Positions 6,060 to 34,788 of a DNA stretch of 64,000 nucleotides are shown here, piece after piece. Each line of letters opens with the position of its first letter. Position 1 is the first letter of the stretch. Location: positions 2,624,001 to 2,688,000 of the forward strand of contig CP084167.1 in NCBI GenBank assembly GCA_021513715.1, written 5' to 3'. The stretch comes from Candidatus Heimdallarchaeum endolithica (GTDB lineage Archaea; Asgardarchaeota; Heimdallarchaeia; Heimdallarchaeales; Heimdallarchaeaceae). The translations under genes and the position numbers were made by a program. The notes beneath the pieces are model-generated. The model did no database searches and was not told the DNA's origin. It saw nothing but the letters and a program-made list of their open reading frames with translations.

Positions 6060-7069
6060 TGTTTACTCAATAGACTTGGGTTACACTTTTGGGTACTAGA
6101 GAAACATAGGGGTGATTCATAAATCTTTCTCCTGGGGTGAGGAAGTTAAGAGATTGGTGAGGACGACTAAAATTGTAGTAAGAGCGGTAGTAGGAGAGAT
6201 CTGCGTTGCAGTATTTTAGACCTAATCTTTCCATCTCACGGATGATTGTCCCATGTAGTCTTTCTACTTTTCCACATGTTTCGGGGTGAAAAACTCTAGC
6301 TCTGATGTGTTTTATTCCTTCTGTTTGACACCAACGGGAGAAGGTACTTGTTCCTCCTCTAACGGAAGAGAAGAGTGCTCCATTGTCCGTGAGGATAGAC
6401 TCGGGGTAACCGTACTCTTTTATTGCTTCCTCTAGCAAACTTATTATCTGCTCTTTTTTTGGTGCAAAAGGGTGGAATTCAGCTCCCAGACAGAATCGTG
6501 AGTGGTCGTCTATCAAGGTTATGAGATGGAGATGTTGTCCCTGTTCTTCTACCCAGAATGGTCCTTTCACATCTATTTGCCAGAGTTCGTTAGGTTTTTG
6601 ACGTTCAAAACTCTTGTATCGAGGTCTTTTCCTCTTTTTTCTATTAACCCATAAAGGAAGACCTAACTCTTTTATTACTTTCGTCACTGTCGTCTGAGAG
6701 AGTGCTTTTCCTTCTCTCTTCAACAAATAAGCTATCTTCTCCACATTCATTCCTTGTTTTATTCTTAACTCCCTTATCCTCTCTTTTAACTCCTCATCTA
6801 CTTTCCTGTGTATAGTTTTTGGTCTGGAAGATCTATCTTTCCACCATACTCCTTCAGGGTTCTCTCTGAACCTCTTCAACCACTTATACACAAACTTCCT
6901 ACTCACCATATACTTGTGAGCTACCTCTTTTATCTTCTCTCCTTCCAAAGCTTTTTTAACCACAATCTTTCTTAGTTTCTCCAGGTTACGTTCGGGTTTG
7001 TTCATAATATATCACTTACCCACGTAACCCACTTCTATTTATTTGTTACCAATGTGAGTTGAGTATACA
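6060..7069 (-). mobile_element. IS481-type insertion sequence, copy B (complete, 1010 bp, TGT...ACA ends, 16-bp TSD)
   Basis: Imperfect 26-bp TIRs at 6060-6085 and 7044-7069 (19/26 match); direct repeat GCAAGTCACTTGATTG at 6044-6059 and 7070-7085. Confidence 0.96.
6067..7005 (-). CDS. IS481-family DDE transposase (HTH + rve integrase core)
   Basis: N-terminal HTH (VSRKFVYKWLKRF); WQID, IDDHSR, LTDNG and GKVER motifs; the stop codon lies inside the terminal repeat. Confidence 0.95.
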   Translation of the reverse strand: MNKPERNLEKLRKIVVKKALEGEKIKEVAHKYMVSRKFVYKWLKRFRENPEGVWWKDRSSRPKTIHRKVDEELKERIRELRIKQGMNVEKIAYLLKREGKALSQTTVTKVIKELGLPLWVNRKKRKRPRYKSFERQKPNELWQIDVKGPFWVEEQGQHLHLITLIDDHSRFCLGAEFHPFAPKKEQIISLLEEAIKEYGYPESILTDNGALFSSVRGGTSTFSRWCQTEGIKHIRARVFHPETCGKVERLHGTIIREMERLGLKYCNADLSYYRSYYNFSRPHQSLNFLTPGERFMNHPYVSLVPKSVTQVY

Positions 7070-7134: not shown

Positions 7135-7671
7135 CTAAAGTAGTTTTTTTGATTTTGCTACATACCAACCTAAAATCGTAGCTCCGTGAATAATCTTGTT
7201 ATTCTGTATTAATTCTTCAACTTCCGTTTTTGAAAATTCTAAAACATCTATAAATTCATCTTCGTCTAGATTTTGTTTACCCTCTTTTTCTACAATAGCA
7301 AAATAAAGATGTCCCCAACTACTACTGAAAGCAACAGGATGCCAAGTTAGTAAAGATTCAATAGAAACTACTTTGTAACCAGTTTCTTCCCTTACTTCTC
7401 TTTTTGCAGAGCGAATTGGGTCTTCTTCTGGCTCTATAAGCCCTGCAGGAATCTCAATACTCATACTAGTCCAAGGGTATCTGTACTGTTTTATCATAAT
7501 TAAGTTTTTATCCTTCGTCATGCATACAGTGGCAGTGAAGTTTTTACTTTCAACAACAGAAAATTCTACTTCTTTGCCTTTTGGATTCTGTACTTTATCA
7601 TTTCTTACCTTGAGATAATTATTCGAATAAACTTCATTTTTATTTATGCATATCCAGTTGCTTATGTCCAT
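7135..7671 (-). CDS. Nudix hydrolase (ADP-ribose pyrophosphatase-like)
   Basis: Nudix box GLIEPEEDPIRSAKREVREETG and QYRYP motif. Confidence 0.92.
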   Translation of the reverse strand: MDISNWICINKNEVYSNNYLKVRNDKVQNPKGKEVEFSVVESKNFTATVCMTKDKNLIMIKQYRYPWTSMSIEIPAGLIEPEEDPIRSAKREVREETGYKVVSIESLLTWHPVAFSSSWGHLYFAIVEKEGKQNLDEDEFIDVLEFSKTEVEELIQNNKIIHGATILGWYVAKSKKLL

Positions 7672-7799
7672 GAGATACTTTTTTACTTAAAAAATTAAAT
7701 TTTTAGTTTGTGGAGTTATTAGACCAATAACAACCTGAAACACATTTGCATAAATAAAGAATACAAGATATTGGGGAGTGTAACAACTTTTCCGCTGTC

Positions 7800-7807
7800 T
7801 TTATATA
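7800..7807 (+). promoter_or_regulatory. Putative TATA box for the element-3 RNA
   Basis: TTTATATA about 25 nt upstream of the first hairpin (G7829). Confidence 0.55.
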
Positions 7808-7828
7808 TTTAATTCTCATTTATCTAAT

Positions 7829-8046
7829 GTCTTGAGCTATATGCTTAAAGACGTAGGTTTCATTTCTACGACACCCGGTCTTTCCTTTGGGGGTTATGAG
7901 TGCCCGGGATCAGGAGATGAACCCCTTAGAGAACTTAATTAAGACTGTGTCTTTCATGTTCTCTTAAGCAAGTCTTCACAACATTTGCTATGTTTATTGA
8001 CTGGTTGGGTAGAGTCCTGAAGAAATTAAGTAAAATTTCAACTCAT
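7829..8046 (+). ncRNA. Structured RNA, candidate omegaRNA-like scaffold
   Basis: GC-enriched. Stems 7829-7837/7843-7852, 7852-7857/7865-7870, 7874-7878/7904-7908 and 7928-7934/7958-7964; crossing pairings 7890-7895/7920-7925 and 7910-7915/8015-8020. G-U pairs favour the + strand. Confidence 0.65.
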
Positions 8047-33562: not shown

Positions 33563-33960
33563 TATAATCTTTATTATATTATTTTTTTAAGCTCTTTTTC
33601 TAATTCAGGAAGGGTATATTGAACATTTCCTTGAACAAAATATTGTATTTTGTTCATATTAGATGTAGAAGTATAGTTAAATAAGACACGGGTAGTTTTT
33701 CTATTTTCAAAGAAAAGATATGAAGCAGGGTAAACCTCTAGACTTGTTCCTACTGCAATAAGCAGATCGCACTGTCTAGAAGTCTCAAAGGCAGCAGTAT
33801 AAACTTCTTGAGGTAGAAATTCCCCAAAGAGAATAACTTTTGGTTTTAATGGGTTGTTACATTTAGGACATTGAGGAAAAGGTTTCTCGCTAAGATGCTT
33901 TTTTTCATCAACTACTTCTTCATATTGGCACCAAAGACAATGTAACTTACTTGTTGTACC

Positions 33961-34243
33961 ATCAACTTAATTTTTGTACAATATTTTTGTACGCCAATCT
34001 TGCTCTCGGAAAGATCTGTCTAGGAGGGAGATCTAAACACTCATTGAGCCAGAGGAGAAGGTTGAGCACTCTTCCACCGTGGAAACTGGATGAATAAATC
34101 CTCTCACACGGGAAAGTTAAGTCGTATTCAACTTTTCTTTGATTTCTTTCTTTATGCGAATGTTTTTTTTTATCCTGACACGCCGTGCCAGCTTAGAGAG
34201 TAAGTATTTTTCTTAACATCTATCTTTTTTTTTCACTCTCTAC
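33961..34243 (-). ncRNA. Structured RNA inside element 2, candidate omegaRNA-like scaffold
   Basis: Stems 34233-34242/34194-34203 and 34185-34191/34175-34181, plus AAAGUUGA/UUAACUUU, UUCCAC/GUGGAA and AGAUCU/AGAUCU. G-U pairs favour the - strand; starts about 24 nt after a TATA box. Confidence 0.62.
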
Positions 34244-34262
34244 ATTAATAATGTCTTTTCAC

Positions 34263-34270
34263 TATTTAAA
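34263..34270 (-). promoter_or_regulatory. Putative TATA box for the element-2 RNA
   Basis: TTTAAATA on the - strand, at the expected distance from the first hairpin. Confidence 0.55.
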
Positions 34271-34788
34271 CACCAATTTTTTAATTTGACAAAAATGTAC
34301 AAAAAAGCTCTTCATGAATCTCAAAAACATTTTTTGTGTTTGCTTTCTGATGTAAGGCATCTATATTTTGTGTGGCTACAAAAACCTTCTCTTCTCCTAA
34401 CATTTTTGTATGTTTGATATTGCATAATGAGCTTCGTTTGGTTCTGCAGATTTAATAATGGAAAAAGCTTCTAAAAAAAATTCCCAAACCCTTTCCGGAT
34501 TCTTTCTAAAAGCACTTATAGTGCCATATTTATTAGGGTCAAATTTTTGCCATATTCCATTCGGCGAACGAAAATCTGGAATCCCGCTAGGTGTACTAAT
34601 ACCTGCGCCAGTAAAGAAAAGAATCTTTTCAGCATTTTTTGCTAATGTAGCTATATTGCTAATTTCACTTTTACTATTCATTAAATTACATTTAATTCTT
34701 GAGGTAAAAAATATTCTTGCTCTACCTTCTAACTAAATATTCTGAGGTAAAAAACAATATAATAATCTCTTTTTCTATATATTTCAAT

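What the first reader, a model, noticed from the sequence alone, without database searches (positions are those of the whole stretch)
33941..34316. 353-bp RNA-only element inserted at the catalytic His codon of a sirtuin
Seen: insertion between CAT (His) and GGT (Gly) of the EIHG motif; paired TTTTTGTACA motifs at both ends; a TATA box followed by two abutting hairpins, the same opening layout as elements 1 and 3, and further stems up to the right end. The host gene has a second lesion (A5 instead of A6), consistent with decay after knockout. Predicted guide GGUACAACAAGUAAGUUACA.
Basis: partly seen in the sequence, partly recalled or inferred. Interest (0 to 1): 0.72.

Follow-up and report, generated by a model that had tools for sequence, protein, structure and literature searches.

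The report
Gene-less transposon carrying TnpB guide RNA
This is a recently spreading, protein-free jumping element of an Asgard archaeon that carries only a promoter and the guide RNA for a TnpB nuclease encoded elsewhere; such guide-only elements are already known, but its ends fit none of the enzymes known to move them, and its mobiliser is still unidentified.

Summary
The insertion is real. Four metagenomes skip exactly these 353 bp, and the sister species has an intact sirtuin. The host is Ca. Heimdallarchaeum endolithica, which has six copies differing by 1-4 substitutions and up to 3 gap positions. The last ~155 nt are the omega-RNA scaffold of tnpB-only elements with the same ends, one starting 67 bp past the window. 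It has three stem-loops and a covarying pseudoknot ending at GUUGAU, so the proposed guide register is right and the likely TAM is TCAT. Hitting the catalytic His is incidental: it is the gene's only CATG. Omega-RNA-only elements are a known kind. Three things differ. (1) The ends are inverted TTTTTGTACA arms 8 bp from a 2-bp AT core, whereas related TnpBs have Y1 hairpin ends. (2) No IS607, IS110 or IS630 transposase was found, and the single Y1 element has other ends; two family-wide serine recombinases are only candidates. (3) A 5' two-hairpin leader, absent from tnpB parents, is shared by minis of three genera. Transcription and cleavage are untested. The scan noted other copies of this family before.

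The parts
33963..34313 (-). Non-autonomous omega-RNA-only mobile element (351 bp between two AT cores; 353 bp inserted)
   Evidence: Empty site skips 353 bp in 4 metagenomes; six copies with 1-4 mismatches and up to 3 gap positions
34314..34317 (-). Left target half TCAT: His123 codon, left AT core and predicted TnpB TAM
   Evidence: T and C each in 21/22 left flanks; T in 24/25 sites of this family vs 2/27 of the other CATG families (counted)
33961..33962 (-). Right AT core (crossover dinucleotide or 2-bp duplication)
   Evidence: Right junctions read GAT|G, GAT|A, GAT|T and GAT|C, so only AT is fixed
34286..34305 (-). Left-end arms TTTTTGTACA + TTTTTGTCAA, starting 8 bp from the AT core
   Evidence: Sequence; conserved in tnpB parents of 3 genera
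33971..33992 (-). Right-end tandem GTACAAAAA arms; outer arm 8 bp from the AT core; also RNA hairpin SL3 (33992-33976)
   Evidence: helix 6, 94% paired
34263..34270 (-). Archaeal TATA-like box TTTAAATA; predicted transcription start near 34243
   Evidence: The same box lies 27 nt before the tnpB ATG in the parent; conserved in all minis. Function inferred
34175..34242 (-). Mini-specific 5' leader: hairpin H1 (variable sequence) followed by hairpin H2 (CUGGCAC-GGC-GUGUCAG)
   Evidence: Found only in mini elements of 3 genera, not in tnpB parents
34119..34135 (-). Small variable hairpin H3 in the linker
   Evidence: Fold prediction; not conserved in sequence
33961..34111 (-). TnpB omega-RNA scaffold: P1/P1b (34111-34077), nexus stem-loop (34074-34057), SL2 (34050-33999), SL3 (33992-33976), pseudoknot UCAAC (34065-34061) with GUUGA (33966-33962)
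   Evidence: 76-80% identical to parent 3' ends; 32 pairs, 97% paired, 15 with compensatory changes
33941..33960 (-). Predicted 20-nt guide GGUACAACAAGUAAGUUACA (host flank)
   Evidence: Follows the pseudoknot 3' strand; its only close TAM-flanked match would be the empty donor site
34314..34681 (-). 5' part of the disrupted Sir2-family sirtuin gene (codons 1-123)
33574..33960 (-). 3' part of the disrupted sirtuin gene (Gly124 to stop)
34403..34407 (-). A5 run (A6 in relatives): -1 frameshift, stop after 94 codons
   Evidence: Extra base in all four metagenomes. May be an assembly error

Best explanation
A non-autonomous, omega-RNA-only member of a Heimdallarchaeaceae family of tnpB elements. 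Shown: it is mobile and recently amplified, inserts at TC-AT-GR with only AT duplicated, shares both ends and a structurally conserved omega-RNA scaffold with tnpB-only elements of the same genome, and has no ORF. Inferred: (1) the internal TATA box gives an RNA of about 300 nt (5' hairpins, scaffold, 20 nt of host flank); (2) TnpB made in trans binds it and cuts the empty donor site (TAM TCAT followed by the guide match) after excision or on a sister chromosome, so repair from the filled copy restores the element; the filled site is spared because its guide match follows TTGAT, not TCAT; (3) movement is by a double-stranded, trans-acting recombinase that binds the symmetric arms and exchanges at the AT dinucleotide, most likely a serine recombinase as in IS607. 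My odds for the mobiliser: serine recombinase 0.55, DDE transposase with 2-bp duplication 0.2, Y1 0.1, other 0.15. The enzyme itself is not identified.
For: Parents with the same ends and intact RuvC D199/E291/D383. Covariation, including three compensatory pairs in the pseudoknot and a further matched variant UCACC/GGUGA. The layout matches the published three stem-loops plus nexus pseudoknot (10.1101/2023.11.20.567912). The TnpB-tail reading frame is broken in the mini while pairing is kept. The scaffold model also finds the RNAs of IS605-type relatives. Left-flank T is specific to this TnpB lineage. Arms are symmetric about AT, the tips are not conserved, and both orientations are used. IS607 also uses a 2-bp core included in the TAM and short inverted binding motifs.
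Against: No transcript, cleavage or excision circle was observed. No transposase lies in any of about 50 tnpB loci with such ends. The genome lacks an IS607 TnpA, and IS607 elements of related genomes have other ends. The two chromosomal serine recombinases are not flanked by these ends. The single sequence folds no better than shuffles. The pair counts were made on the alignment from which the structure was derived, with related sequences.
Confidence: 0.8

Rival explanations
1. An ordinary MITE: a passive relic of a tnpB element whose RNA scaffold is no longer used.
For: Much of the measured covariation comes from tnpB parents. The six copies are too young to show selection. Expression is untested. 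An earlier follow-up on another copy reached this view (e1-1432759).
Against: It is not a simple internal deletion: the leader has no match in any tnpB element yet is conserved in minis of three genera. Each mini lineage keeps a self-matched pseudoknot (UCAAC/GUUGA, UAGUC/GACUA, UCACC/GGUGA) and the TATA spacing.
Confidence: 0.12
2. A standard IS200/IS605 PATE moved by a Y1 (HUH) TnpA, with TAM TCAT and right-end motif TGAT.
For: The closest outside TnpB relatives have Y1-type ends, and our right end keeps their CAAG and AAG-TGA positions. A weak right-end hairpin exists. The genome has one Y1 tnpA.
Against: There is no conserved left-end hairpin (-1.8 to -4.2 kcal/mol vs -11 to -14 in Y1-type relatives). 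The right flank is constrained (G in 19/23). Sister families have about 31-bp terminal inverted repeats with CATG on both sides. The resident Y1 element has a different GC-rich right end.
Confidence: 0.1
3. Same RNA function, but moved by a DDE cut-and-paste transposase that targets CATG and duplicates AT (analogous to IS630 at CTAG/TA); TnpB would then cut the footprinted or repaired donor.
For: Inverted ends and a 2-bp duplication are formally indistinguishable from a crossover core. DDE-associated TnpBs with inverted ends are known (PMC10691335). The genome is rich in DDE elements.
Against: The terminal bases are not conserved while arms 8 bp inside are. No IS630-type DDE_3 domain was found in five carrier genomes. 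The abundant DDE families seen in the self-comparison have their own different ends (read by eye).
Confidence: 0.2
4. A spliced element (IStron or archaeal bulge-helix-bulge intron) that leaves the sirtuin mRNA intact.
For: Many copies of this family lie in the sense orientation within genes.
Against: No group I intron or other Rfam match. The junctions cannot form a BHB central helix (AUUC against GUUG). Antisense insertions occur in this family and in the sister families. The host gene appears frameshifted upstream.
Confidence: 0.04

Closest known systems
Stand-alone omega-RNAs of OMEGA systems (PMC10691335) and omega-RNA-bearing PATEs of IS200/IS605 (10.1101/2023.03.14.532601)
   Same: Protein-free, mobile, carries transposon ends and an omega-RNA that must be used in trans by TnpB from another element; the guide comes from the flank.
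   Different: The ends are not HUH palindromes. It has its own promoter and a conserved two-hairpin leader absent from the parents. The mini lineage spans three genera.
IS607 family (serine recombinase TnpA plus TnpB, e.g. CboIStron; 10.1101/2023.11.20.567912)
   Same: 2-bp core included in the TAM, short inverted motifs near both ends, same omega-RNA layout.
   Different: The core is palindromic AT rather than GG, the ends are nearly symmetric inverted arms, and no HTH-resolvase TnpA is in the element or the genome; there is no intron.
IS1341-type solo-tnpB elements of the IS200/IS605 family
   Same: The parents are tnpB-only. The TnpB and scaffold are homologous to archaeal elements with Y1-type ends (about 35% protein identity for L101-L103).
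   Different: The GC-rich end hairpins are replaced by TTTTTGTACA arms, the TAM/right-end motifs appear shifted from TCAC/TGAC to TCAT/TGAT, and the target is constrained on both sides.
DDE-associated TnpB/Fanzor elements with inverted ends (PMC10691335, PMC3627910)
   Same: A TnpB cassette held between inverted ends with a short duplicated target.
   Different: No DDE partner was found; the conserved motif is subterminal; 'CATG' does not occur in the text of PMC3627910.

Membership tests
Stand-alone TnpB omega-RNA element | No protein-coding gene | tested here: met
   Longest ATG ORFs are 8 aa (sense) and 37 aa (antisense)
Stand-alone TnpB omega-RNA element | Mobile, with ends shared by TnpB-encoding elements in the same genome | tested here: met
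   Six near-identical copies, an empty site, and three parents
Stand-alone TnpB omega-RNA element | Scaffold of three stem-loops with a nexus pseudoknot ending at the right end | tested here: met
   literature layout
Stand-alone TnpB omega-RNA element | Cognate TnpB with intact RuvC triad | tested here: met
   D199, E291, D383 invariant in 9 homologues; NF040570 above its cut-off
Stand-alone TnpB omega-RNA element | RNA is expressed and guides TnpB in trans | not testable with these tools
   Needs RNA-seq or a cleavage assay
IS200/IS605 (Y1) PATE | Subterminal hairpins at both ends with adjacent guide tetranucleotides | tested here: not met
   No left-end hairpin; relatives show clear ones
IS200/IS605 (Y1) PATE | Target constraint only 5' of the insertion | tested here: not met
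   G at +1 in 19/23 sites and a purine at +2 in 21/23
IS200/IS605 (Y1) PATE | Y1 TnpA element with matching ends in the genome | tested here: not met
   The only Y1 element has a different GC-rich right end finishing TCAC
IS607 | 2-bp core dinucleotide at both junctions, part of the TAM | tested here: met
   AT core, TCAT left flank; known IS607 cores are GG
IS607 | HTH-resolvase TnpA in the element or genome, with matching ends | tested here: not met
   None above cut-off in G000 or G001; IS607 loci of relatives have other left ends
IS607 | Circular dsDNA intermediate and scarless excision | not testable with these tools
   Only assembled contigs of other samples were available
IS110/IS1111 bridge-RNA element | IS110 recombinase and a long programmable target | tested here: not met
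   No PF02371 in the genome; target information limited to TCATGR
IS630/Tc1-type DDE element | DDE_3 transposase, conserved tips, TA duplication | tested here: not met
   No PF13358 in five carrier genomes; the core is AT and the tips vary
IStron / self-splicing intron | Group I intron core | tested here: not met
   No Rfam match near a gathering score

The most novel reading that the evidence does not exclude
The element belongs to an undescribed class of TnpB transposons that never encode a transposase. Instead they exploit a vertically inherited, Heimdallarchaeaceae-specific host serine recombinase (catalytic domain plus a recombinase-like C-terminal domain; C1:316731-317474 or 405384-406091), much as IMEX elements exploit Xer. 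Within it, the mini is a dedicated, long-lived guide-expression cassette whose 5' leader is recombined onto the scaffold of different TnpB lineages.
Probability: 0.25. Interest if true: 0.8.

Novelty: new variant of a known kind. Interest (0 to 1): 0.52.

Why it matters
The biological role of stand-alone omega-RNAs is stated to be unknown (PMC10691335). Here a complete genome offers a directly testable set: intact TnpB, predicted TAM, several guides and known empty sites. The AT-core inverted ends are shared by about 20 tnpB elements of unrelated lineages and by a second mini family in this genome, none with a transposase. That points to an unidentified mobiliser, possibly a host enzyme, that captured TnpB cassettes from Y1-type elements. 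It resembles how Fanzors came to sit in diverse inverted-repeat transposons, and it occurs in an Asgard lineage close to eukaryotes. The sirtuin knockout itself is unremarkable: two paralogues remain.

Tried and rejected
Rfam found nothing for this element or for two relatives. Single-strand folding z-scores were not significant. The sigma-70 scan is not applicable to archaea. Mobiliser searches in G000: no IS607 TnpA; no IS110; no IS630 DDE_3; one tyrosine recombinase, presumed XerA, whose 6-bp-spacer dif-type sites do not fit; Cas1 genes are all CRISPR-associated; one Y1 with other ends. A weight-matrix scan for end pairs up to 15 kb apart gave no autonomous element in the candidate pairs inspected and no convincing chromosomal junction-like site. 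About 50 tnpB loci in related genomes and seven more distant homologues had no adjacent transposase. The pattern and covariance model of the 5' leader hit only minis in 83 genomes; many of these are incomplete MAGs. No RNA holder was listed, which says nothing about expression; no circle junction was seen in contigs, which drop rare forms. A 4-bp CATG or 3-bp ATG duplication was rejected, because right junctions read GAT followed by G, A, T or C. Targeting of the catalytic His was rejected. Splicing was judged unlikely (see rivals). No long-range helix between the tnpB coding region and the scaffold was found. The first protein-pattern scan of genome contigs found nothing. The aCas1 paper (PMC7307682) was not available.

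Full report
Host and site. The window lies in a 3.33-Mb single-contig genome. A primer published for Ca. Heimdallarchaeum endolithica (PMC8813620) matches it exactly. Its same-genus neighbour G001 corresponds to H. aukensis CP084166. On the minus strand a Sir2-family gene is interrupted after CAT (His123) by 353 bp and resumes at GGT. His123 aligns with H118 of Archaeoglobus Sir2-Af2 (1ma3), the catalytic His from my own knowledge. Contigs from four metagenomes join 33959 to 34313, skipping 353 bases, and all four carry one more T at 34402. The H. aukensis gene is intact, 251 aa. Without the element the local gene still stops after 94 codons; one more A gives 251 aa at 84.8% identity. The A5 may be decay or a Nanopore homopolymer error; the genome was assembled from Nanopore reads and mapped with Illumina reads. 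Two sirtuin paralogues (35% identity) remain.

It is a mobile element. The genome holds six copies that differ by 1-4 substitutions and up to 3 gap positions, one 79% copy and several decayed remnants. H. aukensis has a 97% copy at another site. Left flanks end in TC-AT and right flanks begin with G then a purine (T 21/22, C 21/22, G 19/23, purine 21/23). Right junctions also read GAT|A, GAT|T and GAT|C, so only AT is duplicated. The arms TTTTTGTACA lie exactly 8 bp from the AT at each end, each with a second copy inside. The sirtuin gene has a single CATG, at His123, and 2876 of 4970 CATG sites in long ORFs are His codons. Many other insertions also follow His codons. The catalytic hit is therefore incidental.

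Parent. Three tnpB-only elements in the genome share both ends: C1:2688067-2689555 (67 bp past the window), 3216735-3218224 and 2833124-2834727. Their last ~157 nt are 76-80% identical to the mini. The protein scores above the NF040570 cut-off, with D199, E291, D383 and the zinc finger invariant in nine homologues. Homologous elements with the same end grammar occur in three genera of the family.

RNA. In 18 aligned right ends, a 32-pair structure is 97.2% paired, with 15 pairs showing changes on both sides. None of 500 shuffles reached this, and slid controls gave 33-52% pairing. The structure was derived from this alignment and the sequences are related, so these figures overstate. The loop of the first of three terminal stem-loops pairs with the last bases before the core: UCAAC/GUUGA, UCGAC/GUCGA, UAGUC/GACUA, and UCACC/GGUGA in a further mini. 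This is the nexus-pseudoknot layout described for TnpB omega-RNAs. The mini keeps every helix but has lost the TnpB-tail reading frame. T before CAT occurs in 24 of 25 sites of this family but only 2 of 27 sites of the other CATG families (counted; Fisher p = 3.5e-11 for the near-identical table 23/24 vs 2/27; sites not fully independent). This suggests a TAM of TCAT. At the filled site the guide match follows TTGAT, which would prevent self-cleavage. No 16-mer match with 2 or fewer mismatches behind a CAT exists elsewhere in the genome for this guide.

5' leader. TTTAAATA lies 27 nt before the tnpB ATG in the parent and 28 nt before hairpin H1 in the mini. The H1-H2 leader has no match in any tnpB element. 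It recurs, with variable H1 and a conserved GCAC-GGY-GUGY hairpin, in minis of two other genera, and nowhere else in 83 genomes. The scaffolds of these minis do not form one clade (p-AU 0.017 on 162 columns; short alignment, long branches): one set groups with a tnpB parent carrying the same GACUA variant. The mini is thus not a simple deletion derivative. It looks like a persistent expression cassette whose 3' part has been exchanged with, or derived from, different TnpB lineages. A protective 5' structure is my guess for the leader; it is untested.

Mobiliser. More distant TnpB relatives (about 35% identity for L101-L103) have textbook Y1 ends: GAAG plus a GC-rich hairpin on the left, and CAAG plus a hairpin plus AAGCTGAC on the right. 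Their RNA is found by our model. In our family CAAG and AAG-TGA are kept, but the hairpin between them is replaced by the AT-rich arms, and no left hairpin remains. The same end grammar (AT core, about 8 bp, TTTTT plus a TT-N4-AA-like palindrome) is used by most of the genome's 23 tnpB loci of other lineages and by a second ~380-bp mini family. None of these carries a transposase. The genome has no IS607, IS110 or IS630 transposase, and its one Y1 element has other ends. Its only serine recombinases are two ~250-aa genes present in 23 of 25 family genomes and in none of the other genomes of the phylum sample. They have an intact catalytic motif and weak similarity to XisF/Ccr, but are not flanked by these ends. 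Symmetry about a dinucleotide, unconserved tips and the IS607 parallel favour serine-recombinase chemistry (about 0.55). The link to these two genes is circumstantial: the co-distribution is a single clade, not independent evidence.

Comparison and verdict. It works like the stand-alone omega-RNAs and PATEs described in PMC10691335 and 10.1101/2023.03.14.532601, and it meets the testable criteria for that kind. It fails membership tests for Y1 PATEs, IS607 proper, IS110, IS630 and IStrons. The genome paper does not mention TnpB or MITEs in its main text, and my literature searches found no description of CATG/AT-core TnpB elements, though the library is incomplete. Other notes of this scan saw the same family at other copies; one follow-up called it unstructured, which the covariation contradicts. 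Verdict: real, well defined, a new variant of a known kind, with one open and testable question about its mobiliser.

Noticed in passing
window 15484-17324 (and about 15 similar loci in G000): tnpB-only element of a second, 485-aa lineage with ~31-bp inverted ends and CATG on both sides; same end grammar but T is not preferred before CAT; no transposase in any of ~30 related loci.
   Followed up: partly
window about 7669-8046: Copy of a second non-coding mini family (~380 bp, at least 14 complete copies) with CATG-N7-TTTTTTACGTAA ends, a TATA box and hairpins, inserted in both orientations.
   Followed up: partly
G000 C1:925509-925800 (L003): A diverged copy of the ~380-bp mini family lies directly upstream of the genome's only Y1 tnpA-tnpB pair and may have replaced or disrupted its left end.
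   Followed up: no
G000 C1:316731-317474 and 405384-406091 (L001, L002): Two short serine recombinases (catalytic domain plus a recombinase-like C-terminal part, about 250 aa), present in 23 of 25 Heimdallarchaeaceae genomes and in none of the other Asgard genomes sampled; natural role unknown.
   Followed up: partly
L265, L266 (G032 contigs 565 and 389): TnpB-like genes related to the N-terminal half of the 485-aa lineage lie divergently next to >1500-aa ORFs, one with a weak Cas1 match (E = 0.002); probably the Asgard Cas1-TnpB loci of PMC10691335.
   Followed up: no
G000 C1:2688067-2689555 (L024): The parent element's left end supplies GAA TAA right after the host His codon, truncating the host gene by about 63 codons; the TnpB ORF runs about 45 codons through its own omega-RNA.
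   Followed up: partly
G000 C1:1097614-1097720: Decayed left end of the tnpB parent (arm, TATA box, lost start) next to a 3836-aa ORF in a probable aloposon.
   Followed up: no
window 6067-7005: IS481-family transposase above cut-off, one of about 27 copies in the genome.
   Followed up: partly
L184-L193: A separate IS607 family (HTH-resolvase tnpA followed by a ~480-aa ORF) with a conserved left end is common in other Heimdallarchaeaceae but absent from both Heimdallarchaeum genomes.
   Followed up: partly
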